64,000 nucleotides of DNA, from contig MFQZ01000010.1 of the NCBI GenBank assembly GCA_001784435.1, forward strand, positions 18,917 to 82,916, given 5' to 3'. Position numbers and translations under genes: made by a program. Below, in pieces: positions 1-61,323 of this stretch; the stretch's first letter is position 1; every line of letters begins with the position of its first letter. Origin of the DNA: Candidatus Magasanikbacteria bacterium RIFOXYC2_FULL_42_28. GTDB lineage: Bacteria; Patescibacteriota; Patescibacteriia; Magasanikbacterales; GWA2-37-8. The notes under the pieces were generated by a model, which did no database searches, was not told the origin of the DNA, and worked only from the letters and a program-made list of their open reading frames with translations.

Positions 1-270
1 TGAAAGCGAGTGGAATTTAGCAATTTCCGGTAAGGCATTGGCCACGCCCGGATTGGACAGTCCGACCGCGTTTAAAAAATAATCGTCCGTTCCCATCATG
101 GTGGGATTTTTGTGGCCTGGGCGAGGTTCCAGTGAGATTGATTTGGTAGTAACGCCGCCACAGCCGTTTTCAACCATGTGAGCCAAAGACGCGCCGGTAA
201 CGCCGAGAATGCCGGAGGCGAGGACTATTGGGTTAGAAAAGGTTTTATTTAGAAATGTTGTGTGTAGCAT
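1..270 (-). CDS. pyrD: dihydroorotate dehydrogenase, N-terminal part (gene runs off the window start)
   Basis: Minus-strand translation from ATG at 268-270 gives MLHTTFLNKTFSNPIVLASGILGVTGASLAHMVENGCGGVTTKSISLEPRPGHKNPTMMGTDDYFLNAVGLSNPG, the typical PyrD N-terminus. It lies upstream of the other pyr genes on the same strand. Confidence 0.6.
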   Translation of the reverse strand, partial: MLHTTFLNKTFSNPIVLASGILGVTGASLAHMVENGCGGVTTKSISLEPRPGHKNPTMMGTDDYFLNAVGLSNPGVANALPEIAKFHSLS

Positions 271-278
271 AAGTTGGC

Positions 279-388
279 AATGTCAAATTTCCAATTTCCA
301 ATGTCAAACCAATGTCAAAGCCAAAATGTCAAATTTGATATTGGGATTTTGGATTTGATTGGAAATTGGAAATTTGGATTTTGACATT
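279..388. repeat. palindromic MITE-like intergenic element, copy A (family P1, about 110 bp, imperfect about 30-bp terminal inverted repeats CAAATTTCCAATTTCCAATGTCAAA)
   Basis: Near-identical copies at 8098-8212, 25369-25478 and 48038-48150. Internal TTGACA/TGTCAA hexamers. Sits between the stop of the 391..1338 gene and the pyrD start. Confidence 0.85.
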
Positions 389-390
389 AT

Positions 391-1338
391 TTATACTTTC
401 TTTTCAAATAACCAAAGTATCACCGCCTTCTGCATATGCATGCGGTTCTCCGCTTGGTTGTAAATTACGGAATTTTTGTGGTCAATGGCATCGCGCGAAA
501 TTTCGTAGCCAACATGGCAGGGCATACAATGCATAATGCGCGCGTTGGGCGCATAAGTATCAACCATATTGGCATTGATTTGATAGGGCTTGAATGCAGC
601 CAAGCGACGATCATATTCAGCTTGGTATTCAGGAATAACTTTGCCATCTTTAAAAAATTCCATATCAATCCAAGTGTCGGTGTGAACATAATCTGTGCCA
701 GCGAGCGCTTCTTTTAAATTCAAAACTTTTTTTACTTTACCGGTTGCCTCGCACATTTGGTTTAATTCCGCGTCCACGCTTGGCGCGTTGGCTTCGGGTG
801 CGGCAATCGCAACTTCAATTCCTAATTTTGCGCAAGCAAGTTTTAAAGTATTGGAAACATTATTTTCAATTCCGAGCCAAGTAATCTTTTTTACGTTTTC
901 AATGCCATTAGAATATTCCGACATCGTTAAAATATCCGCGAGCGCTTGGCAAGGATGATATTTTTCCGAGCAAGCGTCGATCACTGGAATTTTATTAAAT
1001 GAAGCAGCAACTTCCACATCGCTGGCTTTCAAAGCGCGGAACATCAAAACTTGCCCATAGCGCATAATCGCTTGAATTTCATCGCGAAAATCGCAAAGTG
1101 ATAATTGCGTATTGCGTGAATCAATGTAAATCGCGTGTCCGCCGAGTTCGGTCATGCCGGCTTCAAACGATAGGCGAGTGCGAGTGGAAGTTTTTTGAAA
1201 AAGCATCAACAAAGTTTGGTTGTGCAAAATATCCACTGCTTCGCCAGCCGTTCGTTTAGCTTTTAATTTTTTCGCGATTGCTAAAATTTCTAGAATGTCT
1301 TCGCGAGTTTGTTCTTTTAGTGAGATTAAGTGACGCAT
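391..1338 (-). CDS. argF: ornithine carbamoyltransferase-family protein (OTCase/ATCase fold)
   Basis: STRTRLSFE carbamoyl-phosphate motif, HPCQ, DTWIDME (the OTCase DxWxSMG region) and HCMP (the OTCase HCLP motif rather than the ATCase HPLP). 315 aa. Confidence 0.75.
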   Translation of the reverse strand: MRHLISLKEQTREDILEILAIAKKLKAKRTAGEAVDILHNQTLLMLFQKTSTRTRLSFEAGMTELGGHAIYIDSRNTQLSLCDFRDEIQAIMRYGQVLMFRALKASDVEVAASFNKIPVIDACSEKYHPCQALADILTMSEYSNGIENVKKITWLGIENNVSNTLKLACAKLGIEVAIAAPEANAPSVDAELNQMCEATGKVKKVLNLKEALAGTDYVHTDTWIDMEFFKDGKVIPEYQAEYDRRLAAFKPYQINANMVDTYAPNARIMHCMPCHVGYEISRDAIDHKNSVIYNQAENRMHMQKAVILWLFEKKV

Positions 1339-1345: not shown

Positions 1346-1434
1346 TAGTTCATAAATAATAGTTCATAGCCAATAATACAGATGATAAATTACCGAATCG
1401 CTCTATTGGCTTTGAACTATTGGCTATGAACTAT
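1346..1434. repeat. short intergenic repeats of the GTTCATAGCCAATAG family (two copies in inverted orientation)
   Basis: tagttcataaataatagttcatagccaat at 1346-1377 and its reverse complement ctattggctttgaactattggctatgaactatc at 1403-1434. Same motif at 2118-2150, 9101-9131 and 28353-28370. Confidence 0.7.
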
Positions 1435-2643
1435 CTTCACCGGCCACCCTTTTAATTTCCAACCATCAAACGGACTCCAACCGCACTTGGTTTTTAGATT
1501 TTTATTTTTCACAATTTTTTCTAAATCCAAATCCACAATTACCCAATCATTATTTGGTGGTAAATTGAATATTTTTTCAATGTTCAGACGGGTTAATTCC
1601 ACGATTTTTTGTATGGTAATTTTACCCTGATTATACTCGTTTAGCAAGAGCGGTAAATAGGTTTCAATGCCGGGAACGCCGGACGGAGATTGGGGGTATG
1701 GGAGGGCTTTTTCAGCTAAAGTATGGGGGGCATGGTCAGTACCGACAGTATCAATCGTGCCATCGTTTATAGCGCGCCACAAGGCATCTTGGTCGTGAGC
1801 TGTGCGTAAGGGTGGGTTCATTTGCGCTTTTGCGCCTAACAACTCGTAGGCGCTATCGTTGAGGAACAGGTGATGTGGTGTGGCTTCGGCAAAGACAGTT
1901 ACGCCGGCTTGCTTGGCACTGCGAATTAATTCCAGTTCTTCGGCTGTGCTTGCGTGTAAAACGTATAATTTGGTGTGATATTTTTTAGCAAATTCTGCTG
2001 CCTGCGTGACGGCTTTTATGGCAGCTTCGCGGGAGCGGATTTGGGAGTGGTGTTTTACGCTAAGGGATCCCTCCACTGCGGTCGGGATGACAGGGCTTCG
2101 CTGCGCTTCGCCCTGTAAACTATTAACTATGAACTGTTGGCTATTGGCTCGTATTATTTCATCATCCTCAGCGTGTACGGCTAATACCAAATTCAACTCT
2201 GCGCATTTTTTGAAAATTTTTTCTTGGGCGGAAATTTGTGACACTAATAGATCGCCAGTGGATGAGCCGACGAACATTTTGACGCCAATAATTTCATTCC
2301 TTACCTTATCAATTTCAGCCAGATTTTCCGCGGTGGCACCGAAATAAAAGTAGGGTCGGATTGGCTGGCAGGATTGCGCCAACAATTTATTGACGGCGGA
2401 TTTTTTTTGTTTTAATAATTCAAAAGTGCTTATCCCCGGCATGTTATTAGGCATATCCAATACTGTGGTAACGCCTCCGGCCACGGCCGCACCGGTCGTC
2501 CAATCTTCTTTATGTTCACCACCCGGCACGCGAAAATGGACGTGAGGGTCAATTAACGCTGGCAGTGCCAACAAATTTCGGTTAGAAAATTCCGCTGGAA
2601 AATCACATTCAATGTATTTATTATCCCAAGTTTTAATCTTCAT
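1417..2643 (-). CDS. pyrC: dihydroorotase, carrying an in-frame roughly 30-aa repeat-derived insertion
   Basis: DPHVHFR metal-binding N-terminus, DHAPH, AEDDEII and VLHASTAEELELI blocks typical of DHOase. Lies between the carbamoyltransferase and pyrI/pyrB. Confidence 0.85.
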   Translation of the reverse strand: MKIKTWDNKYIECDFPAEFSNRNLLALPALIDPHVHFRVPGGEHKEDWTTGAAVAGGVTTVLDMPNNMPGISTFELLKQKKSAVNKLLAQSCQPIRPYFYFGATAENLAEIDKVRNEIIGVKMFVGSSTGDLLVSQISAQEKIFKKCAELNLVLAVHAEDDEIIRANSQQFIVNSLQGEAQRSPVIPTAVEGSLSVKHHSQIRSREAAIKAVTQAAEFAKKYHTKLYVLHASTAEELELIRSAKQAGVTVFAEATPHHLFLNDSAYELLGAKAQMNPPLRTAHDQDALWRAINDGTIDTVGTDHAPHTLAEKALPYPQSPSGVPGIETYLPLLLNEYNQGKITIQKIVELTRLNIEKIFNLPPNNDWVIVDLDLEKIVKNKNLKTKCGWSPFDGWKLKGWPVKIVHSQ

Positions 2644-4368: not shown

Positions 4369-5991
4369 TTATTTCATCTTCTCCCGCAACAACTTCTCCG
4401 CCACCACCGGATCCGCCGCCCCTTCGGTCGCTTTCATCACCATTCCTTTTAAAAACTGTAACAGCGGTTCTTTGCCCGCTTTAAATTTGGCTACCTGTTC
4501 GGGATGGGAAGCGATGACGTCGTCCACAATTTTGCCGAGCGCGCCCTCATCACTCATCTGGCCATAGCCCTTTTCTTCCATAATGTGCGTTGGGTCAATA
4601 TCGGTATTGGCATCTAACATTTCATTTAGGATTTTGGCAGCGTTCGTGGAATTAACACGTCCGGTGTAAAACAACGCCAGCAATTCCGAAAAATTTTCTG
4701 CCGATAATTTCAAAATCCGAATATCAATTTTGCGCTCGGCCATGGCACCCATCAATTTGGAGGTGAGCCAGTTACCGGTTAATTTTGCTAATGCTGATTT
4801 TTTATTATCTAAAATCTCCGAAGTAGTTTTTTTATTTTCGGGCTTGCCCGGCGTAGTCCCACTTGGTGGGACGGAGACGGGTAGAGAATGCAACCACTCC
4901 ACCAAATCCGAATAAACATCTTCGGCATAAGTCGCCCAGTGCGGGTCAGTGGCTAAAATCGCGGCGTCGGCATAAGAAAAACCGTATTCTTCGTGAAAGC
5001 GGGCGCGTTTTTGGGCTGGCAATTCCGGTAATTCAATATTACCGGCAATTTTGGCAGGATTAAAGGGTGGAATATCGGGCTCGGGAAAATAGCGATAATC
5101 AGCCGAAGTTTCTTTAATTCTTTGCATGACAGTTTCGCCTTTGTCATCACTCCAACCGCGGGTCTGTTGGGACCAGGCCTCACCTTTTTCAATCATTGCG
5201 GTTTGGCGTTTGATTTCAAAATCAATCGCTTTTTCAACTGCGCGGAAAGAATTAATATTTTTTACTTCCACTTTATTATTCAATTTATAATCACCGATTG
5301 GTTTAATAACCCCGGCTTCATCAACAAATTTTCCGGTTTCTTGCACCGACACATTGGCCTCACAACGCATTTGCCCTTTTTCCATGTCCGCGTTACTTAC
5401 GCCCAAATAGCGGAAAATTGTTTGTAATTCTTGGCAATAGGCCTTGGCTTCTATCCCGCTTTGAATATCCGGGTCGGAGACAATTTCCACGAGCGGGACG
5501 CCAGCGCGATTAAAATCCACGAGGGTTTCCCCCTCCTGCCCGAGGAGGGGCGAGGGGTGGTGGGAGGCGCCGTGGGTTAATTTGGCCGTGTCTTCTTCCA
5601 TGTGGACACGCGTGATGCCGATGCGGGCGGTGTCGCGGTGGTTTTTTGAAGTGATTAAATTTAAAACAATCGCGCCGTGTTCGCCGACCGGTTGATCAAA
5701 TTGGGAAATTTGATATGCTTTTGGCAAATCCGGATAAAAATAATGTTTGCGGTCAAATTTACTTTCGGTAGCGATTTTACAACCCAAAGCAGTGGCAATT
5801 TTAACAATATCGGTAAGAGCAGTGGCGTTTGGCACGGGTAAAGTCCCTGGGTGGGCGAGGCAGACGGGGCAAATGTTAGTGTTAGGCGCGCCGTGGTCCG
5901 GATCATTTTTACACGCGCAAAACATTTTGGATTTGGTTTTCAGTTCCACGTGGATTTCCAGGCCGATGATGGTGGTGTATTTGGGTGTCAT
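4369..5991 (-). CDS. gatB: aspartyl/glutamyl-tRNA amidotransferase subunit B
   Basis: N-terminal YTTIIGLEIHVELKT, NRAGVPLVEIVSDPD, DYRYFPEPDIPP and a C-terminal GatB/YqeY-like tail. Contains a roughly 14-aa GC-rich insertion (ASHHPSPLLGQEGE). Confidence 0.9.
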   Translation of the reverse strand: MTPKYTTIIGLEIHVELKTKSKMFCACKNDPDHGAPNTNICPVCLAHPGTLPVPNATALTDIVKIATALGCKIATESKFDRKHYFYPDLPKAYQISQFDQPVGEHGAIVLNLITSKNHRDTARIGITRVHMEEDTAKLTHGASHHPSPLLGQEGETLVDFNRAGVPLVEIVSDPDIQSGIEAKAYCQELQTIFRYLGVSNADMEKGQMRCEANVSVQETGKFVDEAGVIKPIGDYKLNNKVEVKNINSFRAVEKAIDFEIKRQTAMIEKGEAWSQQTRGWSDDKGETVMQRIKETSADYRYFPEPDIPPFNPAKIAGNIELPELPAQKRARFHEEYGFSYADAAILATDPHWATYAEDVYSDLVEWLHSLPVSVPPSGTTPGKPENKKTTSEILDNKKSALAKLTGNWLTSKLMGAMAERKIDIRILKLSAENFSELLALFYTGRVNSTNAAKILNEMLDANTDIDPTHIMEEKGYGQMSDEGALGKIVDDVIASHPEQVAKFKAGKEPLLQFLKGMVMKATEGAADPVVAEKLLREKMK

Positions 5992-7524: not shown

Positions 7525-7530
7525 ATTGAA

Positions 7531-7628
7531 AATTCTAAGTTCTAAACTCTAAATTCTAATCGATTTGAATTTGTAATTTTAATATTTGGGTTTGTTTAGA
7601 TTTTAGTATTTAGAGTTTAGAGTTTCTC
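7531..7628. repeat. palindromic heptamer-based spacer (TTTAGAG/TTCTAAA family), copy 1
   Basis: aattctaagttctaaactctaaattctaat ... tttgtttagattttagtatttagagtttagagttt: two arms built of 7-mer repeats in inverted orientation. It extends a few nt into the folA 3-prime end. Confidence 0.7.
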
Positions 7629-8092
7629 GTATATATCACAAAATCAAAACCAGCGTGTGGTTCGCGGGCAATTTCTTTCCAAAGCGCGGGATTAATTATT
7701 GGAAAGAAGGTGTCGCCATCCGGAGATTGGTGGACGTGAGTAATATATAATGTATCCACGCGGTCAATTGTTTGTTTGTAAATACTCGCGCCACCACAGA
7801 TAAATACATCTTCGTTTTTTAATTGCGCGAAAGCGTCATCAAGCGAATTAAAGACGCGTACGCCGTCTGGCACTTGGTAATCTTTGTTTAAAGTCAGCAC
7901 CACTGTTTTTCGTCCTGGCAATGGCTTGCCTAAGTATCCTAAAATTGATTCATAAGTGGCTTGTCCCATTAAACAAGTTTTTCCCAAAGTGGTTTTTTTA
8001 AAAAACGCAAAATCTTCCGGAATATTCCACGGGATTTTGTTGTTTTTGCCAATGCAGTTATTGTCGGCGACGGCGGAAATGAGAGAGAACAT
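7610..8092 (-). CDS. folA: dihydrofolate reductase
   Basis: MFSLISAVADNNCIGKNNKIPWNIPEDFAFFKKTTLGKTCLMGQATYESI is the canonical DHFR N-terminus. ATG at 8090-8092. The ORF-track extension MEIGNLDFEIIN is translation of repeat copy B. Confidence 0.9.
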   Translation of the reverse strand: MFSLISAVADNNCIGKNNKIPWNIPEDFAFFKKTTLGKTCLMGQATYESILGYLGKPLPGRKTVVLTLNKDYQVPDGVRVFNSLDDAFAQLKNEDVFICGGASIYKQTIDRVDTLYITHVHQSPDGDTFFPIINPALWKEIAREPHAGFDFVIYTRNSKL

Positions 8093-8097
8093 GTTGA

Positions 8098-8212
8098 TAA
8101 TTTCAAAATCCAAATTTCCAATTTCCAATCAATGTCAAAGCCAAAATGTCAAATTTGATATTTGTAATTTGGATTTGATTTGACATTGGATATTGGAAAT
8201 TTGACATTTATT
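8098..8212. repeat. palindromic MITE-like element, copy B (family P1)
   Basis: aaatttccaatttccaatcaatgtcaaagccaaaatgtcaaatttgata...tttgacattggatattggaaatttgacattt. Sits between the thyA stop and the folA start. Confidence 0.85.
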
Positions 8213-9100: not shown

Positions 9101-9131
9101 TAGTTCATAGCCAATAGTTCTTAGCCAATAG
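9101..9131. repeat. GTTCATAGCCAATAG-family repeat
   Basis: tagttcatagccaatagttcttagccaatag, immediately upstream of the thyA start. Confidence 0.7.
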
Positions 9132-21098: not shown

Positions 21099-22307
21099 AT
21101 GACTTTAAGTGACAAGACCAGTGTAAAGCCGGATTTTAAAACATTACTGCAAGACAACCCGATTAATTTTCCCAAAGTGGGGGATTTGGTTAAGGGTAAG
21201 GTATTGTCTGTGGACAAAGGCGAAATTCACGTTGATATTGAAGGATTGACCACCGGTGTGGTGCGGGGCGCGGAGTTGTTCGCGGAATCGCGCGAGCATG
21301 CTAATTTGAAAGTAGGCGACGAAGTGGAAGCGACGGTTACGGAAATGGAAAATGAAAATGGAGAATTGGAATTGTCGTTCCGCATCGCCGGTTTTCAACG
21401 CGCTTGGGATGCTGTTAAGAAATGGATGAAAGACGGCTTGACCATTAAAGCCAAAATTACCGGCGCTAACAAGGGAGGGCTCATGATGCAAGTAGAGGCC
21501 CTGGCCGGTTTTATGCCGGTATCGCAATTGTCTCCGGAAAATTACCCGCGCGTGGCCGGTGGGGACAAAAATCGTATTTTTGAAAAATTACAAGAATTGA
21601 TTGGCACTGATATGGAGGTTAAAGTAATTGACGCTGATGAAAAAGATGAAAAATTAATCGTGTCCGCGCGCGCGGTGTGGGAAGACAGCCAAAAAGCGGT
21701 ATTGGATTCTTACAAAGTGGGCGATACGGTGGACGGTGAAGTAAGCGCCCTGACATCATTTGGCGCGTTCTTGAAATTTGGCGAGGGCTTAGAAGGGTTG
21801 GTTCATATTTCCGAAATTGCTTGGCAGAGAATTGAACACCCGCGCGATTTGTTAAAAGTAGGAGACAGAGTCAAGGCCAAAATTATTCAATTGGATAAAT
21901 CCAAAATTTATTTGTCGTTGAAACGGTTAGTAGATGATCCGTGGAAACAGGTGGCGGAGAAATATAAAGTGGGCGACAAGGTAAAAGGAAAAATTATTAA
22001 AATTGAAGCGTTCGGTCTCATGGTCGCGCTTGATCAGAATATTCATGGTTTGGCGCATGTGTCGGAATTGTCCGACGCGCCTTTGGCCAATGTCGCTGAC
22101 AAATTTAAAATCAACCAAGAAGTGGAATTTGAAATCGTCAATATTGAGGCGATTGAACACCGCTTGGGTTTGCGCGTGGCCGGAGTAAAAGGAAAAGCGC
22201 CGAAAGCGCCAAAGGCGAAAAAGGGTGAAAAGAGCGAAAAAGCCGAAGAGACGCCCGAGGCCAAAGCGGAAACGAAATCGGAGTTAGAAGAAAAAAAGGC
22301 CGAGTAA
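21099..22307 (+). CDS. rpsA: 30S ribosomal protein S1 (four S1 domains, Lys/Glu-rich tail)
   Basis: Repeated S1-domain pattern GDLVKGKVLSVDKGEIHVDI, GDTVDGEVSALTSFGAFLKF..GLVHISEIAW and GDKVKGKIIKIEAFGLMVAL..HGLAHVSEL. Confidence 0.85.
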   Translation: MTLSDKTSVKPDFKTLLQDNPINFPKVGDLVKGKVLSVDKGEIHVDIEGLTTGVVRGAELFAESREHANLKVGDEVEATVTEMENENGELELSFRIAGFQRAWDAVKKWMKDGLTIKAKITGANKGGLMMQVEALAGFMPVSQLSPENYPRVAGGDKNRIFEKLQELIGTDMEVKVIDADEKDEKLIVSARAVWEDSQKAVLDSYKVGDTVDGEVSALTSFGAFLKFGEGLEGLVHISEIAWQRIEHPRDLLKVGDRVKAKIIQLDKSKIYLSLKRLVDDPWKQVAEKYKVGDKVKGKIIKIEAFGLMVALDQNIHGLAHVSELSDAPLANVADKFKINQEVEFEIVNIEAIEHRLGLRVAGVKGKAPKAPKAKKGEKSEKAEETPEAKAETKSELEEKKAE

Positions 22308-22315
22308 TTGCGTTT

Positions 22316-22350
22316 GTCATTCCGACCGCAGTGGAGGAATCCCTTAACGT
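22316..22350. repeat. GC-rich hairpin repeat (family H1: TGTCAT-YCC-GA...GA-GGR-ATCCC), intergenic copy
   Basis: tgtcattccgaccgcagtggaggaatccc. Near-identical copy with compensatory stem changes inside pyrC (2064-2096, opposite strand). Related copies at 29309-29341 and 60499-60586. Confidence 0.7.
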
Positions 22351-24395: not shown

Positions 24396-25361
24396 ATGCG
24401 CGAACCAAATTATAGTGAGGCTTTTTCCCATTCTTGGCAAATGGTGAAAGAGCACAAAATTTTGTGGGTGTTTGGTTTATTGTCGGTGTGTTTGGGGCAG
24501 TGGGGTTTGGCGAATTTTTTGGGCGGGTTGAATATGGTCGGGTTAAATCAATATGGTGCCTCTTGGCATAATTTTTCTTCACTATTTTTACTTTTGCAAA
24601 TTGCTGGCGAAGGTGTGATTCCGTTTTTGTTAGTTTTGTGGTTATTCGTCGTGGGCGCGGCGCTTTTTATTTTGATGATATTCGTGGCCGTGGTCGCGCG
24701 GGGCGCTTTAATTGCCGCGGTCGGGCATTGGTTTGCCAAAGATGGCAAGGTATCGCTGGCGCTCGTTTGGCGTCATGGCGTGAAAAATTTTTGGAAATTA
24801 TTAGTGTTGGTTATTTTAACCAGATTGTTTGAGGTTGCGCTATTGATTTCGGCGCTCGGGGTTTTTGCTCTTTGTGGCAATTCCACCGCCGGGTTTATCA
24901 GTCAAGCCTTTTTTGGCGCTTTGGCTTTGGCGGTCGGGATTGCTTTGGAGGCGGTGATGATTTTTGCCTCTGGGTATGTGGTGATTGATGGCGAGTCCGT
25001 GTCTAATTCTATTGCTCGCGCTTGGCGTTTATTTACTCGTCATATTTTGATTACTTTAGAATTGGGGGTATTATTGACGGTAGCAAGTTTACTGGTGGCT
25101 GTGGTAGTTATATTAGCCGGTTCTTTGGTGCTTATTCCCGCCATGATTGTCTGGTTGTTCGCCATTTTGACCGGCTTAAACGGGTTGTTTAGTTTTGGTT
25201 TTATTTTGGCCTGGGTTTTATTTGTGATGGTAATCGGTTTGGCCGCGGCGATTTTCAACGCTTTTAACACGAGCGTTTGGATGTATTTGTTTGTTAAGAT
25301 GCATCGCGAGAGTTATGTGGGGTGGGTGTTAAATACAGTGAAAAAGTTATTTAGTAAATAA
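24396..25361 (+). CDS. polytopic membrane protein, unknown function
   Basis: 321 aa, eight or more hydrophobic segments. Extended -10 promoter tgtggtataat at about 24345-24358. Confidence 0.5.
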   Translation: MREPNYSEAFSHSWQMVKEHKILWVFGLLSVCLGQWGLANFLGGLNMVGLNQYGASWHNFSSLFLLLQIAGEGVIPFLLVLWLFVVGAALFILMIFVAVVARGALIAAVGHWFAKDGKVSLALVWRHGVKNFWKLLVLVILTRLFEVALLISALGVFALCGNSTAGFISQAFFGALALAVGIALEAVMIFASGYVVIDGESVSNSIARAWRLFTRHILITLELGVLLTVASLLVAVVVILAGSLVLIPAMIVWLFAILTGLNGLFSFGFILAWVLFVMVIGLAAAIFNAFNTSVWMYLFVKMHRESYVGWVLNTVKKLFSK

Positions 25362-25368
25362 ACAAGTT

Positions 25369-25478
25369 AATGTCAAATTTCCAATTTCCAATGTCAAATC
25401 AAATCCAAAGCCAAAATATCAAATTTGACATTTGACATTGTCTTGGAAATTGGGAATTTGGATTTTGAAATTATCATT
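25369..25478. repeat. palindromic MITE-like element, copy C (family P1), ending exactly at the pilB ATG
   Basis: aatgtcaaatttccaatttccaatgtcaaatcaaatccaaagccaaaatatcaaatttgacatttgacattgtcttggaaattgggaatttggattttgaaattatcatt. Confidence 0.85.
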
Positions 25479-27209: not shown

Positions 27210-28352
27210 ATGATAGTACGTCACAGTGAGACCCGCACGCATTTTGAACCTTCGGTAAAATTTTATCGCACGATTGCTTTGTCGTTTTTATTTATTACGA
27301 TTGTTTTGCTTGGACTTATCATTTTTATTACTTCCAAAAAAGCGTCCATTGTTATTCTGGCTAAAGAAGACGCTAAAACAGCTAATTTGAGTATTAATGT
27401 TGGCGCGGGTGGCACTGTTGGCGCGATTAAAGGCGTGGTAACCACTTCGATTTTTACCGGAAGCGAAAAATTTTATCCGACGACATTTGATTCTTCTGAA
27501 TCAGTCGCGACCGGAGAGGTGATTATTTACAACAAAAGTAATGTCGACCAGGCGCTTGTCAAAACCACTCGATTTTTAACGCCGGAGCAAGTAATGTTTC
27601 GTTTAAGTGAGCGGGTTAATGTTCCAGCCGGCGGGCAGGTAATTGCCCCGGTGTATGCCGACCGGGCGGGCGCGAGCAGTGAAATTGGACCAGCGCCGTT
27701 TATTATCCCCGGGTTATCGGAAGACAGGCAGAAATTTATTTACGCCGAAAGCAAATCGGCTATGACCGGTGGCGTAAAAAAGAACGGAGTGTTGACGGCA
27801 ACTGATTTAGCCACGGCCGAAAAATCGTATCAAGAAAAAGTTAAACAAAAGTTTGTGAGCCAGGCGGTGGCGCCGGCCGAAGGGATGAGTTTGGTAGTGG
27901 TTGTACTTTCTACCAACGCTACTGCCGACCACAAAGTTGGTGATACTATCGCCGAATTTGTTTTAAGCGGTGAAAGTCGCGTGGTGGCGGTATGGTATGA
28001 AACAAGCGCGCTCAAAGAAATGGTGGCGCGTGAAATTGGGAGTCAGGTGGATTTGGAATTGGAAAAAGTTGTGACGGTTTCGGGCGAGCCCCAAATAACA
28101 TTGTCCGCCCAAGATGTTGACGCCGGCACCGCGCAATTGTCCGTATCGCAAGAAGCGCGCGTTACGCTTGATTCGGACGGTTCCAAAGTCGCGCCTCGTC
28201 AATTTTTAGATAAAACCAAAGAAGAAATTGAGCGGTATTTGTTGGGCTTAGGCCATGTTTCGGCCGTGGATGTTAAATTTTCCCCCAGTTGGATGCGTAA
28301 ATCGCCGAGTGTGCCGGATAATATTAAGGTGGTGGTGAAGCAGGTGAAGTGA
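27210..28352 (+). CDS. membrane-anchored protein of unknown function, adjacent to pilB
   Basis: Single N-terminal TM IALSFLFITIVLLGLIIFITS, then a roughly 330-aa extracytoplasmic region with no recognised motif. Confidence 0.5.
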   Translation: MIVRHSETRTHFEPSVKFYRTIALSFLFITIVLLGLIIFITSKKASIVILAKEDAKTANLSINVGAGGTVGAIKGVVTTSIFTGSEKFYPTTFDSSESVATGEVIIYNKSNVDQALVKTTRFLTPEQVMFRLSERVNVPAGGQVIAPVYADRAGASSEIGPAPFIIPGLSEDRQKFIYAESKSAMTGGVKKNGVLTATDLATAEKSYQEKVKQKFVSQAVAPAEGMSLVVVVLSTNATADHKVGDTIAEFVLSGESRVVAVWYETSALKEMVAREIGSQVDLELEKVVTVSGEPQITLSAQDVDAGTAQLSVSQEARVTLDSDGSKVAPRQFLDKTKEEIERYLLGLGHVSAVDVKFSPSWMRKSPSVPDNIKVVVKQVK

Positions 28353-28432
28353 TAGTTCATAGCCAATAGGGTGGGCGAGCGATTCGTTGTCTCCCCCTGC
28401 CCGAGGGGGAGAATAAGAGGGGGTGGGAGCGG
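28353..28432. repeat. composite repeat: GTTCATAGCCAATAG unit plus GC-rich hairpin family H2 (CTCCCCCTGCCCGAGGGGGAG-AATAAGAGGGGGTGGGAGCGG)
   Basis: The H2 unit recurs in-frame in gatB at 5527-5572. Confidence 0.7.
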
Positions 28433-28443
28433 TCGTTCGTCAT

Positions 28444-28471
28444 TGACAAAAAAGCATAGGCGTTTTATAAT
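28444..28471 (+). promoter_or_regulatory. near-consensus sigma-70-type promoter TTGACA-16-TATAAT driving the ncRNA candidate
   Basis: ttgacaaaaaagcataggcgttttataat. Confidence 0.6.
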
Positions 28472-28478
28472 GTATTTA

Positions 28479-28663
28479 TGGTGATTGGAACGGCTACCAA
28501 CCGTTACCCCGTAAGGGATCTCGACTAAGTCGTGGCTAAGCCAAATAAAAGTTAAACATTCGGGTGGAACCGTCAATTGTCATTGCGAGAAGGCCGTAGG
28601 CCGACGAAGCAATCTTTCAAACCATTGACCCCGATACCTATTTTTAGGTATGGGGGTATTTTT
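28479..28663 (+). ncRNA. small structured RNA candidate, about 185 nt, bounded by promoter and intrinsic terminator; possible SRP (4.5S)-like domain IV, but the identity is uncertain
   Basis: Contains GAGAAGGCCGUAGGCCGACGAAGCAAUC (compare the SRP helix-8 AGG...GGAAGCAG pattern) and ends with the CCCCGAUACCUA-loop-UAGGUAUGGGGG hairpin plus U7. No ORF. Confidence 0.4.
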
Positions 28664-28740
28664 TTAGAAAAAAGTATATATTCAAGTATATACGGGAATA
28701 TATATTTAAATATATACTTAAATAATGATAGGCGAAATTT

Positions 28741-29286
28741 ATGAAAAAAACTCCGATTTTAAAAGGTCCACGGATAATTTTACGCCCGCTAAAATTAAGC
28801 GAAGCCACTTACTATGTAAAATGGTTTCGTGACAAAGAAGTTGTCCAATATTTAGGCAATAAATTACTGAATATCAAAGCCAAAGGCGTGCGCGACTATT
28901 TTATAAAAGAAAATAACAAACCGGACGCGATATTGTGGGCGATAGAGGTGGTGGGTGTTGGGCATATTGGCAATGTTCATTTGGATTTGGATAACAATAA
29001 CAAACGGGCAAGTTTGGGGATAGTAATCGGCGACAAAAATTATTGGGGCGAGGGTTACGGAGCGGAGTGTTTGGAAATTTTAGGCGATTATGTTTTTAAA
29101 AAATTAAAATATAATCGATTACAACTGACGGTTTTTACCGCCAATAGGCGTGCCGTTCGCGCTTATAAAAAAGTCGGGTTTAAAATTGAAGGCACTTTGC
29201 GAAAAAATATTTATGCCTATGTGTTTAAAAAATATTGTGATGAATATGTGATGGCGATTTTAAAAGACGAGTGGTTTAAAAAATAA
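28741..29286 (+). CDS. GNAT family N-acetyltransferase (RimJ/RimL-like)
   Basis: GNVHLDLDNNNKRASLGIVIGDKNYWGEGYGAECLEIL...RRAVRAYKKVGFKIEG acetyl-CoA-binding motifs. Confidence 0.8.
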   Translation: MKKTPILKGPRIILRPLKLSEATYYVKWFRDKEVVQYLGNKLLNIKAKGVRDYFIKENNKPDAILWAIEVVGVGHIGNVHLDLDNNNKRASLGIVIGDKNYWGEGYGAECLEILGDYVFKKLKYNRLQLTVFTANRRAVRAYKKVGFKIEGTLRKNIYAYVFKKYCDEYVMAILKDEWFKK

Positions 29287-29308
29287 AAATTAATTTATTA
29301 ACCGACCG

Positions 29309-29341
29309 GATGGAGATTCCTCACATTCGTTCGGAATGACA
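29309..29341. repeat. GC-rich hairpin repeat (family H1), intergenic copy upstream of thrS
   Basis: ggatggagattcctcacattcgttcggaatgaca. Identical core at 60551-60586 inside folC. Confidence 0.7.
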
Positions 29342-29350: not shown

Positions 29351-31096
29351 ATGGACAAAGAACAACTCGAACACCTGCGCCACTCCTGCGCGCACCTACT
29401 CGCCGCGGCGGTTTTGGAATTGTATCCAAACGCTAAACGCACCATTGGTCCGGCGATTGAAAACGGTTTTTATTATGATTTTGATTTCGGGGTGGAGAAA
29501 ATTTCGGAAACAGATTTGAAAAAAATAGAAGAAAAAATGCGCCAAATTGCTCCCACTTGGGAAAAATTTGAACGTCAAGAAGTTAGCGCTAGCGGAGCGA
29601 AAGCTGTTTTTAAAGACAATGAATATAAAATAGAATTAATCGAAGAATTTAGCGTTGACGGGCAAGCGCTTACTTTGTATAAATCCGGCGCTTATGTGGA
29701 TTTGTGCCGCGGTGGGCATAGCGAGAACCCGAGCAAAGAATTAAAACATTTTAAATTATTGTCGGTGGCGGGCGCGTATTGGCGCGGGAGTGAAAAAAAT
29801 AAAATGTTGACGCGTATTTACGGCACTTGTTTTCCGACTAAAAATGAATTGTATGAGCACTTACATCAATTGGAAGAAGCCAAAAAGCGCGATCATCGTA
29901 AAATCGGCGCCGAGCAGGAATTATTTTGTTTTGATGATCGCGTGGGTAAGGGCCAAGTTTTGTGGTTGCCAAACGGCACGATAATTCGTAATGAAGTGGA
30001 AAAATTAACTATAGAAAAAGAATCTGAAGGCGACTATCTGCGCGTGCGTACGCCGCACCTCGCCAAAGAAGAATTATTTTTGACTTCCGGGCATTTGCCG
30101 TATTACAAAGACAGCATGTATCCGCCCATGGTAATGGACGATGGCAACTACTATCTGAAAGCGATGAATTGCCCGCATCACCACACCATTTATAATTTTA
30201 AACCGCACAGTTATCGCGAGTTGCCGCTCCGTTTGGTAGAATATGGTGAATGTTTTCGCAATGAATTGTCCGGCACTTTGGCTGGGTTACTCCGCGTGCG
30301 TGCGATGGCGATGAATGACGCGCATATTTATTGCCGTAAAGAGCAAATTAAAGACGAATTTAAAAGCGTGATGGAACTGGTGATGGAATATTTCCGAATT
30401 TTCAAATTGGAAAATTATTGGTTTCGTCTTTCCAAATGGAGTCCGGATCATTTGGATAAATATATCAACGAACCGGAAAATTGGCAATTTAGCGAGGGGG
30501 TGATTCGGGAGGTGTTACAAGAAATGAAAGTAAAATTTGTGGAAGCCGCGGACGAGGCGGCGTTTTACGGACCGAAGGTAGACGTGATGTTTAAGTCGGT
30601 TATCGGACGCGAAGAAACCATGTCCACTATTCAATTGGATTTCGCGGCGAAAAAGCGTTTTGATTTAAAATACACCGATTCTGATGGCAAAGAAAATAAC
30701 GAGGTGTTTGTGATTCACCGTGCGCCACTGTCAACCCACGAACGGTTTATGGCGTTTTTAATTGAGCATTTTGCCGGTGTTTGGCCGGTCTGGCTCTCAC
30801 CCGTGCAAGTACTCTTCGCGCCGGTGGCGAGCGCGCACGTGGAAGGCGCGAAAAAATTAGCCGGTGAATTTAAAGTTGCCGGCATTCGCGTAGAGACCGA
30901 TGACGCGGACGAAACTGTTGGCAACAAAGTGCGCAAAGCCGTTGGCCGGAAAATTCCGTATATTGTCGTAGTGGGGGATAAGGAACTCGCGGGTGGCGAA
31001 TTAATGGTGCGCGTGCGCGGAGAAGAAAAACCGGCGAAATTTGTGAAAGAAGAATTTTTGGCAAAGGTGGTGGGGGAGATTAAAGCGCGGACGTAA
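29351..31096 (+). CDS. thrS: threonyl-tRNA synthetase (no N-terminal TGS domain; editing-type N2 domain present)
   Basis: HSCAHLLAAAV editing-domain motif, class II core, and HRAPLSTHERFMAFLIEHFAGVWPVWLSP. Confidence 0.9.
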   Translation: MDKEQLEHLRHSCAHLLAAAVLELYPNAKRTIGPAIENGFYYDFDFGVEKISETDLKKIEEKMRQIAPTWEKFERQEVSASGAKAVFKDNEYKIELIEEFSVDGQALTLYKSGAYVDLCRGGHSENPSKELKHFKLLSVAGAYWRGSEKNKMLTRIYGTCFPTKNELYEHLHQLEEAKKRDHRKIGAEQELFCFDDRVGKGQVLWLPNGTIIRNEVEKLTIEKESEGDYLRVRTPHLAKEELFLTSGHLPYYKDSMYPPMVMDDGNYYLKAMNCPHHHTIYNFKPHSYRELPLRLVEYGECFRNELSGTLAGLLRVRAMAMNDAHIYCRKEQIKDEFKSVMELVMEYFRIFKLENYWFRLSKWSPDHLDKYINEPENWQFSEGVIREVLQEMKVKFVEAADEAAFYGPKVDVMFKSVIGREETMSTIQLDFAAKKRFDLKYTDSDGKENNEVFVIHRAPLSTHERFMAFLIEHFAGVWPVWLSPVQVLFAPVASAHVEGAKKLAGEFKVAGIRVETDDADETVGNKVRKAVGRKIPYIVVVGDKELAGGELMVRVRGEEKPAKFVKEEFLAKVVGEIKART

Positions 31097-31107
31097 AATT
31101 AATAAAA

Positions 31108-31143
31108 TAAAAAAACACCGAAGCGATTTGCTTCGGTGCTTTA
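31108..31143. terminator. bidirectional intrinsic terminator between thrS and the GC-rich island
   Basis: aaaaaaacaccgaagcgatttgcttcggtgcttt. Confidence 0.7.
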
Positions 31144-31241
31144 GTTTAAAATACTAAAGGGATGGGCGGCATGGTGAGCGAGAACCTGCCGTCCCATCCG
31201 CAGGCGCGCGGGGGGGGGGTGGGTATCTCGGGAACGGGGGG

Positions 31242-31579: not shown

Positions 31580-31702
31580 GTTGGCATATCTCCAAAATGG
31601 CCCACGCAGGGCCGTGTGTCAGCCGGATTCAGGGTCGGCTTATCCCCAGGGTGGTCATGCCACCTCTCTTTAGTATTTTAATGTTATTTTAAATGAGCTT
31701 TA

Positions 31703-31738: not shown

Positions 31739-31791
31739 TAATAATCTTAGCACATTTTTGGCGTTTTGTCAAGACCACGCCGCTCGCGCTT

Positions 31792-59904: not shown

Positions 59905-61323
59905 TCAATTTTGGGCGGAAATTGGTCGCAATTGTCCGCTAAAGTAGATACTGCCGGTGACTAGCAAAATGTCGCCTGTGTTGAGGGTTTTGTGGATGGT
60001 TTTGTAGGCCTGGATGGGGTTTGGAGATGTTTTGATTTTGGTTTTTGGACAGTCAATTTTGAATAGTTTTGTAAGTTCATTTGGGCTGATTGCCGGTCGC
60101 GCGCCTGGGGCGGTCGTTTGGGAGCAGGTGATGGATATTGGTTTTAGAGTTGATAATTGTTTGACCATTTGTTTGATATTTTTGTCAGCGGAAAAGCCTA
60201 CTAATAGATGCAATGGTCTGTTTTGGCGAAGTTGTTTTAAAGTCGCGACCGTGGTTTTCATTTTATCCGGATTATGCGCGCCGTCTAGAATTATTAACGG
60301 ATTTTTGTGGACAATTTCAAAACGCAGTGGTTGTTTGGCATTTGCCAATCCTTTTTTAATCGCGCTGTCTTTTATTTTTAACGCACGTGCAATTTTAATA
60401 CATAAAATTGCATTGATTATTTGATGTTCGCCCGGGGCGGTTAAAGTGTAGGTTTGATTTTTGTATTTAAAGGTGGTGCTGTATTCGTCAACACCATTTG
60501 TCATCCCGAGCGAGGCTCGCGCCGACGAGGGATCTCCATTAGCGACCGATTGGGATGGAGATTCCTCACATTCGTTCGGAATGACAGGTGAGTGTCGTAA
60601 AATTTGGTAACGCGGTTTATTTATCGTAAATAATTTTGTATTGGTTAGTTTACATTCTTTTTTAATTATTTTTAAGATTTTCGGATCGGTTTCGGCCGTG
60701 AATACTTTGCATCCGGTTTTAATAATGCCAGATTTTTCATAAGCGATTTCTGATTTGTTGTTGCCGATAATTCCAACATGATCCAGTCCGATATTTGTAA
60801 TGACCGCGATATCTTTGTGGGGAATAATATTGCTGGAATCATACCGTCCACCCGCGCCGACCTCGGTTACTAGCCACTCCACTTTTTTATCAGCAAAATA
60901 TTTTAATCCCAGCGCTTCGGTAAATTCAAATAATGATAAATTATCGTAGGGTGTTTTTTTAGTGTAGATTTTATATTTATTTTTTAACCAATTTACCAAA
61001 AACGCAAATTCAGCACGCGAAATTTCGCGGTTGTTAATTTTCCAACGCTCGGTAATGTAGGTCGGGTGTGGGGAAGTGGATAGGCCAACGCGTTTACCCG
61101 AAGCAACTAAAATTGATTGTAAATAAGTCGCGACCGAGCCCTTGCCACTTGTGCCAGTGATATGAATATAATGGGGGATTTTACGTTCGGGATTGCCGAT
61201 TAAATCCAAAAAAAATTGCAGACGTTTTAAATACCAGTCGCAATGATTAGAGTCGGTCAAATATTCTTTGCGTGGGAGTTTGGCAAAATCCAGTAAGAAT
61301 TGTTCGGCTTCTTTGAAGTTCAT
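59905..61323 (-). CDS. folC: folylpolyglutamate synthase / dihydrofolate synthase (Mur ligase family), carrying an in-frame roughly 30-aa repeat-derived insertion
   Basis: ITGTSGKGSVATYL P-loop, VGLSTSPH, EVGAGGRYDSSNII. Insertion RHSPVIPNECEESPSQSVANGDPSSARASLGMTNG is encoded by hairpin repeats. Confidence 0.8.
   Translation of the reverse strand: MNFKEAEQFLLDFAKLPRKEYLTDSNHCDWYLKRLQFFLDLIGNPERKIPHYIHITGTSGKGSVATYLQSILVASGKRVGLSTSPHPTYITERWKINNREISRAEFAFLVNWLKNKYKIYTKKTPYDNLSLFEFTEALGLKYFADKKVEWLVTEVGAGGRYDSSNIIPHKDIAVITNIGLDHVGIIGNNKSEIAYEKSGIIKTGCKVFTAETDPKILKIIKKECKLTNTKLFTINKPRYQILRHSPVIPNECEESPSQSVANGDPSSARASLGMTNGVDEYSTTFKYKNQTYTLTAPGEHQIINAILCIKIARALKIKDSAIKKGLANAKQPLRFEIVHKNPLIILDGAHNPDKMKTTVATLKQLRQNRPLHLLVGFSADKNIKQMVKQLSTLKPISITCSQTTAPGARPAISPNELTKLFKIDCPKTKIKTSPNPIQAYKTIHKTLNTGDILLVTGSIYFSGQLRPISAQN
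60499..60586. repeat. tandem inverted pair of family-H1 GC-rich hairpin repeats located inside the folC reading frame
   Basis: tgtcatcccgagcgaggctcgcgccgacgagggatctcc ... ggagattcctcacattcgttcggaatgaca. Confidence 0.7.

What the first reader, a model, noticed from the sequence alone, without database searches (positions are those of the whole stretch)
2062..2150. REP-like GC-rich hairpin repeats inserted in-frame inside essential genes (pyrC here; also folC 60499-60586 and gatB 5527-5572)
A family of short hairpin repeats (H1: TGTCAT-YCC-GA..GA-GGR-ATCCC; H2: CTCCCCCTGCCCGAGGGGGAG...GGGGGTGGGAG) occurs in intergenic DNA at 22316-22350, 29309-29341 and 28390-28432. The same units also lie inside the coding frames of pyrC, folC and gatB, where they add about 30, 35 and 14 residues without breaking the frame. 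The pyrC copy (tgtcatcccgaccgcagtggagggatccc, minus sense) and the intergenic copy at 22316 (tgtcattccgaccgcagtggaggaatccc) differ by compensatory changes (ATTCC/GGAAT against ATCCC/GGGAT), which implies selection on the stem. In pyrC the hairpin unit is fused to a GTTCATAGCCAATAG-family unit, the same juxtaposition seen intergenically at 28353-28432. This suggests a composite mobile or duplicative repeat that can insert in multiples of three and be tolerated in surface loops of housekeeping enzymes.
Basis: seen in the sequence. Interest (0 to 1): 0.7.

Follow-up and report, generated by a model that had tools for sequence, protein, structure and literature searches.

The report
In-frame hairpin repeats in CPR genes
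Short GC-rich hairpin repeats that normally sit between genes have also been copied, in frame, into floppy surface loops of three housekeeping enzymes of a tiny uncultured bacterium; this is a new example of the 'selfish DNA inside genes' known from Rickettsia, and the repeat belongs to a very widespread hairpin family for which I found no description.

Summary
The window is from a Candidatus Magasanikbacteria (Patescibacteria/CPR) genome. H1 (TGTCAT-YCC-GA…GA-GGR-ATC) occurs six times: three intergenic, one in pyrC, two as an inverted doublet in folC. One folC copy matches an intergenic copy at 34/34 nt. H2 occurs once in gatB and once between genes.

The extra coding segments are lineage-specific. 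PyrC has +20 aa, against a 28-aa segment in most of the 120 orthologues. FolC has +33 aa. GatB has +10 aa, which an 87%-identical relative lacks; that relative carries an H1 at another site that is empty here. In the AlphaFold models the inserts are the only segments of three or more residues with pLDDT below 50.

H1 belongs to a hairpin family found in many phyla. Stem triplets are perfectly complementary in 130 of 143 copies, with eight Watson-Crick triplet pairs. Copies usually form head-out inverted doublets of about 60-100 nt and show no target-site duplication. There is no Rfam match and no transposase in the window.

This is REP/REPIN- and RPE-like DNA, retained in genes only where it stays in frame in a permissive loop. 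The 'composite mobile unit' idea is not supported, and the copying enzyme is unknown. I rate it a new member of a known kind.

The parts
1417..2643 (-). pyrC (dihydroorotase, 408 aa), host gene
   Evidence: Pfam Amidohydro_1/DHOase. Catalytic H34, H36, K122, H157, H230 and D303 are invariant in the alignment. Foldseek match to DHOase 7uof, TM 0.84.
2059..2118 (-). Net 20-codon insertion in pyrC (LQGEAQRSPVIPTAVEGSLS, aa 176-195)
   Evidence: Most of the 120 orthologues have a 28-aa segment here; the window has 48 aa. AF2 pLDDT is below 50 only at aa 178-191. Coordinates.
2061..2092 (-). H1 copy in pyrC: TGTCATCCCGACCGCAGTGGAGGGATCCCTTA
   Evidence: An orthologous H1 lies at the same site in L004, with the compensatory ATTCC/GGAAT stem.
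2091..2115 (-). Separate GC hairpin CAGGGCGAAGCGCAGCGAAGCCCTG, containing two GCGAAGC motifs and encoding QGEAQRSP
   Evidence: DNA fold -7.2 kcal/mol, z -2.7. Similar 'GEAQR/GEAPK' peptides are inserted at another site in FolC of P0147 and P0164.
2119..2148 (-). Unit of the TAGTTCATAGCCAATAG family inside pyrC (core CAGTTCATAGTTAATAG at 2120-2136; encodes NSQQFIVNS)
   Evidence: 3 mismatches. The pyrC orthologues in L009 and L010 have CAGTTCATAGCCAATAG and CAGTTCACAGCCAATAG at the same site, with TAG changed to CAG, which removes the stop. It adds no length.
4369..5991 (-). gatB (540 aa), host gene
   Evidence: Pfam GatB_N/GatB_Yqey. PDB 3AL0_B, E 3e-108.
5533..5562 (-). 10-codon insertion in gatB (HHPSPLLGQE) made of H2 (element span 5527-5572)
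   Evidence: Absent from the 87%-identical P0242/L007 and from most orthologues. H2 resembles the intergenic copy. The 8-bp stem is seen.
4834..4878 (-). Second gatB expansion (VSVPPSGTTPGKPEN) containing the small perfect hairpins GTCCCAC-CAA-GTGGGAC and CGGGC-AA-GCCCG
   Evidence: 13 extra aa relative to the consensus. At this site L007 additionally carries a 16-codon canonical H1, TGTCATTCTGAGCGAAGCGAAGAATC, that the window lacks.
59905..61323 (-). folC (472 aa), host gene
   Evidence: Pfam Mur_ligase_M/C and FOL3_C.
60493..60591 (-). 33-codon insertion in folC (SPVIPNECEESPSQSVANGDPSSARASLGMTNG, aa 245-277)
   Evidence: Absent from more than 40 orthologues. AF2 pLDDT is below 50 only at aa 246-277. 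Coordinates.
60499..60535 (+). H1 copy a of the folC doublet (TGTCATCCCGAGCGAGGCTCGCGCCGACGAGGGATCTCC)
60553..60586 (-). H1 copy b of the folC doublet. Together with copy a it forms an 88-nt head-out inverted doublet.
   Evidence: Identical at 34/34 nt to 29308-29341. The doublet folds at -20.2 kcal/mol, z -3.2.
22315..22348 (+). Intergenic H1 copy, 8 nt after the stop codon of the gene at 21099-22307 and ahead of a T-run hairpin
29308..29341 (-). Intergenic H1 copy between the genes at 28741-29286 and 29351-31096
28579..28613 (+). Intergenic H1-like copy with a TGC/GCA stem and a longer loop
28390..28432 (+). Intergenic H2 copy
28353..28369 (+). Intergenic consensus TAGTTCATAGCCAATAG unit, immediately after the stop codon of the gene at 27210-28352. 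Related arrays lie at 1346-1433 and 9101-9131.

Best explanation
The segments are copies of short dispersed palindromic DNA repeats of the REP/REPIN kind, sitting inside genes.

Shown here:
- The same repeat families lie between genes and inside pyrC, folC and gatB.
- The coding copies are extra, in-frame, stop-free stretches that most orthologues lack.
- They coincide with the low-confidence loop segments of otherwise well-predicted enzyme models.
- Close relatives differ in which sites are filled.
- The same few loops have been hit by different repeat families in other Magasanikbacteria.
- H1 is a hairpin with the architecture (T)GTC-AT-NNN-GA-[loop, canonically GCGAAGC]-GA-N'N'N'-AT-C. Its stem covaries across hundreds of copies from many phyla.
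- H1 usually forms head-out inverted doublets of about 60-100 nt with no target-site duplication.

Inferred:
- New copies arise by a copy mechanism that acts on the hairpin and leaves no duplication. That could be a single-strand-DNA (HUH/Y1, RAYT-like) enzyme encoded elsewhere, or recombination and gene conversion between copies.
- Insertions land anywhere.
- In a genome that is about 90% coding, selection removes all coding copies except those that keep the frame, carry no stop and fall in permissive surface loops.
- The inserted peptide itself has no function, because H1 is read in several frames and in both orientations.
For: Repeat identity and excess over chance.

Lineage specificity:
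- PyrC segment is 48 aa against 28 aa in most of the 120 orthologues.
- The FolC insert is absent from more than 40 orthologues.
- The GatB insert is absent from the 87%-identical L007, while L007 has an H1 where the window is empty.
- L008 FolC has an extra H1 at a second site that is empty in the window.

Loops: the inserts coincide with the only segments of three or more residues with pLDDT below 50, in models of mean pLDDT 87-88. The DHOase fold and catalytic residues are kept.

Hotspots hit by H1-, H2- and other repeat-derived peptides in other orthologues.

Hairpin constraint:
- 130 of 143 canonical copies have perfectly complementary triplets, in 8 Watson-Crick types.
- At the Y/R pair, 133 of 135 copies are Watson-Crick and 2 are T-G.
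- The orthologous pyrC copies differ by ATC>ATT (synonymous) paired with GGA>GAA (Gly>Glu).

Doublets and duplications: 158 head-out against 27 tail-out doublets, with no target-site duplication.

Coding copies in unrelated genomes.

Several reading frames are used.

The GCGAAGC DNA mini-hairpin is unusually stable and is underestimated by nearest-neighbour models (PMC13037366).
Against: - No transposase of any kind is among the genes called in the 64 kb. Genes lying between H1 pairs in other genomes are ordinary. The copying agent is therefore unknown.
- Single H1 hairpins fold weakly by standard parameters (-3 to -5 kcal/mol, z not significant).
- The sister genomes L004 and L008 have inserts at the same pyrC and folC sites. 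Those events are old, and later differences may come from gene conversion rather than new insertion.
- The TAGTTCATAG-like unit, and some H2-like peptides in orthologues, occupy the loop without changing its length. That fits patch replacement better than simple insertion.
- Only 6 H1 and 2 H2 copies are in the window; the genome-wide census was not possible.
- Filled and empty sites are too diverged to define exact junctions.
Confidence: 0.75

Rival explanations
1. There is no transposition. The coding copies arise by gene conversion or templated repair from intergenic copies, or by hairpin-primed local synthesis, at loops where any sequence is tolerated. The elements are 'duplicative' only through the host's recombination machinery.
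For: - The 34/34-nt identity between a folC arm and an intergenic copy contrasts with the sister genome, whose orthologous arm has a different loop.
- The pyrC loop holds TAGTTCATAG-like or H2-like sequence without a length change in P0041, P0034 and P0043.
- There is no target-site duplication and no transposase.
- The same intergenic position is occupied by different repeat families in relatives.
Against: - Gene conversion needs a pre-existing homologous tract. It cannot by itself explain first arrival at empty sites such as the GatB sites.
- Identical 27-nt variants occur in unrelated high-GC organisms and in viral contigs, which points to spread of a defined element.
- The strong preference for head-out doublets (158 against 27) looks like a defined unit.
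Confidence: 0.3
2. The coding hairpins are kept because they do something in cis, such as mRNA stabilisation or processing, translational pausing for folding, or priming or protein binding on single-stranded DNA. They are functional elements rather than tolerated passengers.
For: - Stem complementarity is kept in coding copies even at the cost of an amino-acid change.
- The hairpin architecture is strongly conserved across phyla.
- Intergenic copies sit just downstream of genes.
- GCGAAGC-type mini-hairpins are implicated at replication and priming sites (PMC13037366).
Against: - Most orthologues of the same enzymes lack any insert.
- Different families, orientations and frames occupy the same loop.
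- There is no clear excess of T-G over C-A mismatches that would mark an RNA-level constraint (6 against 3).
- Nothing ties the position within the gene to a domain boundary in PyrC.
Confidence: 0.1
3. The extra segments are ancient native loops of these proteins, and their resemblance to intergenic DNA is coincidental.
For: Sister genomes carry inserts at the same pyrC and folC positions. The GatB loop varies in length even in solved structures.
Against: - DNA identity to intergenic copies is 34/34 and 30/32 nt.
- The inserts are absent from the great majority of orthologues.
- An 87%-identical GatB lacks the insert.
- The inserted peptides are translations of a repeat found in many phyla.
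Confidence: 0.03
4. The inserts are an assembly or binning artefact, that is, chimeric joins at repeats.
For: Repeats can mislead short-read assemblers.
Against: - The exact PyrC protein is encoded on 6 contigs; the three places shown are from separate ENA, JGI and Logan assemblies.
- Reading frames are intact on both sides.
- Relatives from other samples show inserts at the same sites.
Confidence: 0.01

Closest known systems
Rickettsia palindromic elements (RPE; Ogata et al. 2000, as summarised in PMC3733652)
   Same: Palindromic repeats found both between genes and in frame inside housekeeping genes that stay functional. The inserts are tolerated as extra peptide segments. The host is a small, reduced genome.
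   Different: The sequences are unrelated and the phylum is different (Patescibacteria). The units here are shorter (about 30-nt singles, about 88-nt doublets). The H1 family is not lineage-restricted; it is found in many phyla.
Intragenic GTAG- and CGTC-tagged REPs (Di Nocera et al. 2013, PMC3733652)
   Same: Imperfect palindromes of 20-40 nt with a conserved tag at one end. They are mostly extragenic and often form inverted dimers. A minority lie inside ORFs and encode 20-30 aa, sometimes twice in one gene.
   Different: The tag here is (T)GTCAT, not GTAG or CGTC. No REPtron or RAYT was seen. The core is a GA/AG-flanked mini-hairpin.
REPINs mobilised by RAYTs (Bertels and Rainey 2011, PMC3116915)
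   Same: Two REP-like hairpins in inverted orientation form the preferred unit. There is no target-site duplication. Near-identical copies occur within one genome.
   Different: REPIN-RAYT systems are described as vertically inherited and lineage-specific, with one cognate RAYT gene. Here identical variants occur in unrelated organisms and in viral contigs, and no RAYT was found.
Enterobacterial small mobile sequences and MITEs found intragenically (Delihas 2007-2011: PMC2759123, PMC2229807, PMC3184786)
   Same: Non-autonomous small repeats that sometimes contribute coding sequence.
   Different: By established knowledge, MITEs have terminal inverted repeats plus target-site duplications. No duplication is seen here.

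Membership tests
REP / REPIN (RAYT-associated) | Short (20-40 nt) imperfect palindrome repeated in the genome, mainly extragenic | tested here: met
   Six H1 copies in the window. In related Magasanikbacteria loci 19 of 29 copies are intergenic (with gene calls from 21, 22, 31, 33). Stem covariation.
REP / REPIN (RAYT-associated) | Conserved GTAG or CGTC tetranucleotide tag at one end | tested here: not met
   The invariant 5' end is TGTCAT. PMC3733652 contains neither the string GTCAT nor ATGAC, so no such tag is described there.
REP / REPIN (RAYT-associated) | Inverted doublets as the predominant unit | tested here: met
   The folC doublet spans 60499-60586. Across loci there are 158 head-out against 27 tail-out doublets, 60-100 nt long.
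REP / REPIN (RAYT-associated) | A cognate Y1 (RAYT) transposase gene flanked by the repeats | tested here: inconclusive
   None in the 64-kb window. Genes between H1 pairs in 10 other loci are ordinary. The rest of the genome could not be searched.
MITE | Terminal inverted repeats | tested here: met
   In doublets the two H1 arms act as inverted ends of about 25-30 nt.
MITE | Target-site duplication flanking the element | tested here: not met
   Flanks of 157 doublets show direct-repeat matches only at chance level.
MITE | A parent IS with the same ends | not tested
   No IS was seen in any locus inspected. No systematic search was possible.
Rickettsia palindromic elements (RPE) | In-frame insertion in ORFs that remain intact | tested here: met
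Rickettsia palindromic elements (RPE) | Sequence membership in RPE-1 to RPE-8 of Rickettsia | not tested
   No RPE sequences were available for comparison. The host phylum and unit length differ.
Any curated RNA family (Rfam 15) | Covariance-model match at the gathering score | tested here: not met
   The whole window gave only one tRNA. A canonical doublet in L014 gave only sub-threshold miRNA-hairpin look-alikes.
Intein / self-splicing intron | Splicing domains or a catalytic RNA core; segment removed from the product | tested here: not met
   The inserts are 30-99 nt, which is too short. There are no Pfam or NCBIfam hits to the peptides and no Rfam intron hit. Removal from RNA or protein cannot be tested with these tools.

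The most novel reading that the evidence does not exclude
H1 may be a pan-bacterial family of single-strand-DNA mini-hairpin elements that has not been described. Its architecture is TGTCAT-NNN-GA-GCGAAGC-GA-N'N'N'-ATC, usually as head-out doublets. It is distinct from GTAG and CGTC REPs and spreads without target-site duplication. Spread would occur across phyla, including through viruses, by an enzyme not yet identified. In gene-dense CPR genomes it would be a major, recurrent source of loop insertions and length variation in essential proteins.
Probability: 0.3. Interest if true: 0.75.

Novelty: new member of a known kind. Interest (0 to 1): 0.5.

Why it matters
- It extends the Rickettsia 'selfish DNA in protein-coding genes' phenomenon to the Candidate Phyla Radiation. 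With about 90% coding density, an element there has almost nowhere else to land.
- It shows that a few permissive loops act as recurrent landing pads across a clade. That explains part of the odd length variation of CPR proteins, and also spurious 'hypothetical protein' calls such as VILSEAKDL or ILRFAQDD peptides.
- The hairpin family is very widespread and strongly covarying, yet absent from Rfam and from the literature I could search. Naming it would improve annotation and would give a handle for finding the enzyme that copies it.

Tried and rejected
- Rfam on the whole window (gathering scores) and on a canonical doublet (E up to 10) gave nothing relevant.
- Pfam and NCBIfam scans of the repeat-encoded peptides gave no family.
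- The transposase search found only ordinary genes. It covered the Pfam families of all called genes across the window and the ORFs lying between H1 pairs in 10 loci.
- Target-site duplications were tested on 157 doublets and none was found.
- Filled-versus-empty junction analysis between the window and its sisters (L007, L008) failed to define exact ends, because the flanks are too diverged.
- GC-island scanning for further coding inserts was too unspecific.
- The split OTCase gene in L004 is caused by an in-frame stop, not by a repeat.
- Literature string searches for the DNA core and for the typical peptides gave 0 papers. Searches combining CPR or Patescibacteria with repeats found nothing relevant.
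- BLAST of a canonical doublet against PLSDB plasmids and INPHARED phages gave no match at that sensitivity.
- Single-hairpin folding energies are not significant with standard parameters.
- Orientation relative to GC skew is 3 against 3 in the window, so it is uninformative.
Full report
**Source and context.** The window comes from a Candidatus Magasanikbacteria (Patescibacteria/CPR) genome from Rifle groundwater. The exact PyrC protein is encoded on 6 contigs; the three places shown are from separate ENA, JGI and Logan assemblies. The FolC and GatB proteins are named 'Candidatus Magasanikbacteria bacterium RIFOXYC2_FULL_42…' in NCBI. GC content is about 42% and about 90% of the window is coding. 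The genes are ordinary housekeeping ones: the pyrimidine operon, gatB, thymidylate genes, the ribosomal-protein operon, secY, topA and folC. No transposase family appears among them.

**Observation check.**
- TGTCATYCCGA occurs exactly five times, and a sixth time with one mismatch. Shuffles give 1.73 matches, and none of 100 reached 6.
- A structure-constrained pattern, GTCAT-NNN-GA-N4-26-N'N'N'-AT, finds the same six copies, against 0-1 in shuffles.
- Three copies are intergenic (22315, 28579, 29341). One is in pyrC (2061-2092). Two are in folC (60499-60535 on the plus strand, 60553-60586 on the minus strand).
- The folC copy b is identical to the intergenic copy at 29308-29341 over 34 nt (E 1.5e-11). 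The pyrC copy matches the 22315 copy at 30/32 nt (E 1.4e-5), and the two differences are the compensatory pair ATCCC/GGGAT against ATTCC/GGAAT.
- H2 occurs in gatB (5527-5572) and between genes (28390-28432). The two copies are about 75-80% alike, with 2 matches against 0.13 expected.
- The TAGTTCATAGCCAATAG family has 8 matches against 0.11 expected, one of them inside pyrC.

**Are the coding segments extra and lineage-specific?**

PyrC:
- The stretch between the conserved HAED and IRSR motifs is 28 aa in most of the 120 orthologues and 48 aa here.
- The extra 20 aa are LQGEAQRSPVIPTAVEGSLS (nt 2059-2118).
- The closest relative (P0002/L004, 72% identity) has an H1 at the orthologous position, plus a second tandem H1 instead of the window's GC hairpin.

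FolC:
- 33 aa (245-277; nt 60493-60591) are absent from more than 40 orthologues.
- The 81%-identical sister (P0122/L008) has an H1 doublet at the same site, but with different loop sequences.
- That sister also has a further H1 at a second site that is empty in the window.

GatB:
- Ten codons (5533-5562) are absent from the 87%-identical P0242/L007.
- L007 in turn carries a 16-codon canonical H1 (TGTCATTCTGAGCGAAGCGAAGAATC) at a site that is empty in the window.

Presence and absence therefore differ in both directions between close relatives. The pyrC and folC events predate the split from the nearest sisters.

**Where the inserts sit in the proteins.**
- The PyrC model has mean pLDDT 87.2 and pTM 0.89. 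Its only segment of three or more residues with pLDDT below 50 is residues 178-191, inside the insert.
- The FolC model has mean pLDDT 87.9 and pTM 0.88. Its only such segment is residues 246-277, which is the insert, lying between two beta strands.
- The PyrC model superposes on solved dihydroorotases (7uof, TM 0.84), and the metal-binding residues are invariant in the alignment.
- In GatB the site is a loop that also varies in length relative to the Thermotoga structure 3AL0.
- 'Surface loop' is inferred from the low confidence and the flanking secondary structure. It was not measured.

**Anatomy of H1.**
- The window's copies share an invariant TGTCAT and a 5-bp stem AT-YCC/GGR-AT. The stem is closed by GA…GA around a variable loop. 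A 3' tail defines two subfamilies: …ATCCCTTAACG and …ATCTCCATCC.
- Single hairpins fold weakly under nearest-neighbour parameters. The folC doublet forms a long hairpin (-20.2 kcal/mol, z -3.2). The separate GC hairpin in pyrC (CAGGGCGAAGCGCAGCGAAGCCCTG) scores z -2.7.
- The canonical loop in relatives is GCGAAGC. This is the DNA 'mini-hairpin', whose stability standard models underestimate (PMC13037366).

**A very widespread family.**
- I scanned one genome per GTDB species for TGTCATNNNGAGCGAAGCGANNNATC. By my arithmetic about one chance hit is expected: 20 fixed bases against about 1.2e12 positions.
Hits came from Acidobacteriota, Nitrospirota, Bacteroidota, Chloroflexota, Bacillota, Gemmatimonadota, Planctomycetota, Verrucomicrobiota, Omnitrophota, Gracilibacteria, Saccharimonadales and others.
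- In 130 of 143 copies the two free triplets are perfectly complementary, using eight different Watson-Crick triplet pairs.
The free Y/R pair was T/A 79, C/G 54, T/G 2 and C/A 0.
- Across 320 loci there are 692 structure-constrained copies. Head-out inverted doublets (TGTCAT outermost, 60-100 nt) outnumber tail-out ones 158 to 27. There is no target-site duplication (example at L014 1069-1154).
- The exact 27-nt cores of the window's variants recur in contigs of 51-61% GC, which are unrelated organisms. The canonical core occurs in 83 IMG/VR stretches.
- Rfam, Pfam and NCBIfam have nothing for it. String searches of the paper library returned nothing.

**Coding copies elsewhere.**
- In an unbiased sample of copies from loci under 50% GC, 7 of 35 lie well inside long open frames. 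Examples are a GMP-synthase-like ORF just before its SGGVDS motif and ORFs of 956 and 623 codons.
- Canonical copies also lie inside long ORFs in other phyla.
- Among 120 orthologues of each of the three enzymes, insertions of 6 aa or more cluster at a few sites:
  - PyrC columns 169-176;
  - FolC columns 236-245 and column 333 (26 of 120);
  - GatB columns 139-144 (13 of 120) and column 362.
- Many of these insertions are recognisable translations of H1 (VIP…E.SL, CH.E…, …LGMT, …ND), of H2 (PLL.KEG, PPPARGG) or of other repeats.
- Different families, orientations and frames hit the same loops. This argues for structural permissiveness rather than a target preference or a useful peptide.

**The TAGTTCATAG unit.**
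- The pyrC stretch CAGTTCATAGTTAATAG (2120-2136) is a real family member. At the same site the orthologues in L009 and L010 have CAGTTCATAGCCAATAG and CAGTTCACAGCCAATAG, with TAG changed to CAG.
- The family is abundant between genes in those genomes.
- It does not lengthen the protein. It looks like a replacement patch rather than a simple insertion.
- The units in pyrC are therefore a mosaic of independent families, not one composite element. The intergenic juxtaposition at 28353-28432 involves H2, not H1.

**Mechanism.**
- Best supported (0.75): these are REP/REPIN-like dispersed palindromes that are occasionally copied into genes. They are retained only when in frame, free of stops and in permissive loops.
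- The copying step is inferred. The doublet unit and the lack of duplications fit an HUH/Y1-type or recombinational route and argue against a DDE-type MITE.
- The main rival (0.3) is spread purely by gene conversion or templated repair. It is favoured by the 34/34-nt identity at a site whose sister copy differs, and by the replacements that leave length unchanged. It does not explain arrival at empty sites or the cross-phylum identity.
- A cis-regulatory role for the coding hairpins (0.1), native ancient loops (0.03) and an assembly artefact (0.01) are less likely, for the reasons given under the rival explanations.

**Comparison with what is known.**
- In-frame palindromic repeats are known from Rickettsia (RPEs). 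GTAG- and CGTC-tagged REPs occur inside genes of Opitutus, Thauera and others, often as dimers encoding 20-30 aa (PMC3733652).
- REPINs are inverted REP doublets (PMC3116915).
- The present case works like these. It fails the GTAG/CGTC tag criterion, has no demonstrated RAYT, and fails the duplication criterion for MITEs.

**Verdict.** I file this as a new member of a known kind, in a new phylum and with a distinct hairpin family. Interest is 0.5: the phenomenon is not new in principle. The CPR setting, the recurrent hotspots and the apparently undescribed pan-bacterial hairpin family are worth following up.

Noticed in passing
window 266-401, 8086-8208, 25356-25478, 48025-48149: AT-rich intergenic palindromes of 110-123 nt built from words such as AATGTCAAATTTCCAATTTCCAAT. 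In other Magasanikbacteria, FolC orthologues carry 'NFQF/SNFQ' peptides at the folC hotspot. These look like translations of this word, so AT-rich repeats may also enter genes.
   Followed up: partly
window 7529-7625, 48877-48926, 50110-50235: A further intergenic repeat family based on TTTAGAGTTTAGAATTTAG, present in direct and inverted copies.
   Followed up: no
window 1346-1433, 9101-9131, 28353-28369; L010 whole locus: TAGTTCATAGCCAATAG units form inverted tandem arrays between genes and overlap gene ends. One supplies the last residues and the stop codon of PyrC (…IVHSQ*). L010 has 17 copies in 6.7 kb.
   Followed up: partly
window 31100-31790: A strikingly GC-rich stretch (local runs above 75% GC) with no called gene. 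It has no Rfam hit even at E up to 1, and no tRNA or tmRNA. It may be an unrecognised structured RNA.
   Followed up: partly
window 28440-28665: A consensus TTGACA-N17-TATAAT promoter, followed by about 180 nt and a T-run terminator hairpin. The stretch contains the H1-like copy at 28579-28613. It looks like a small-RNA transcription unit or a leader for the gene at 28741.
   Followed up: no
window 61330-61365: A terminator-like hairpin, CCATCCCGAC-TAA-GTCGGGATGG, followed by T-rich sequence upstream of folC. Its stem resembles the perfect-stem H1 variant GTCATCCCGAC-GAAA-GTCGGGAT seen in L004.
   Followed up: no
FolC orthologue alignment, after core column 333 (proteins P0121-P0240): A second FolC hotspot where 26 of 120 orthologues carry unrelated insertions of 6-33 aa. 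The window has no insert of 6 aa or more there.
   Followed up: partly
L017 3562-4217: In a Bacteroidaceae MAG, six canonical H1 cores recur at a 105-nt period inside a 301-codon open frame. This is either a tandem array or a repeat protein built from the element.
   Followed up: no
IMG/VR loci L254-L333 (e.g. IMGVR_UViG_2808606664_000001): The canonical H1 core occurs in 83 stretches of viral contigs. One 46.7-kb contig holds at least 9 copies, which makes viruses a possible vehicle for cross-phylum spread.
   Followed up: no
L170, L178, L185, L226, L227, L230, L154: The exact 27-nt cores of the window's H1 variants (…GAACGAATGTGA… and …GACCGCAGTGGA…) occur in contigs of 51-61% GC. These organisms are unrelated to the 42%-GC window.
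   Followed up: partly
L004 1894-2841: The OTCase-family gene downstream of pyrC is split into 251-aa and 47-aa ORFs by an in-frame stop in a diverged stretch. No repeat is involved. It is either a pseudogene or a sequencing error.
   Followed up: partly
L005 12671-12705 and L009 14238-14272: An H1 variant with a nested hairpin in its loop (GTCATCCTGAGTCCCGCCACTGCGGGGCGAAGGAT) lies inside the pyrK-like gene (DHODB_Fe-S_bind family). That gene is 319 and 309 aa in these loci, against 265 aa in the window, so it is probably another in-frame insertion.
   Followed up: partly
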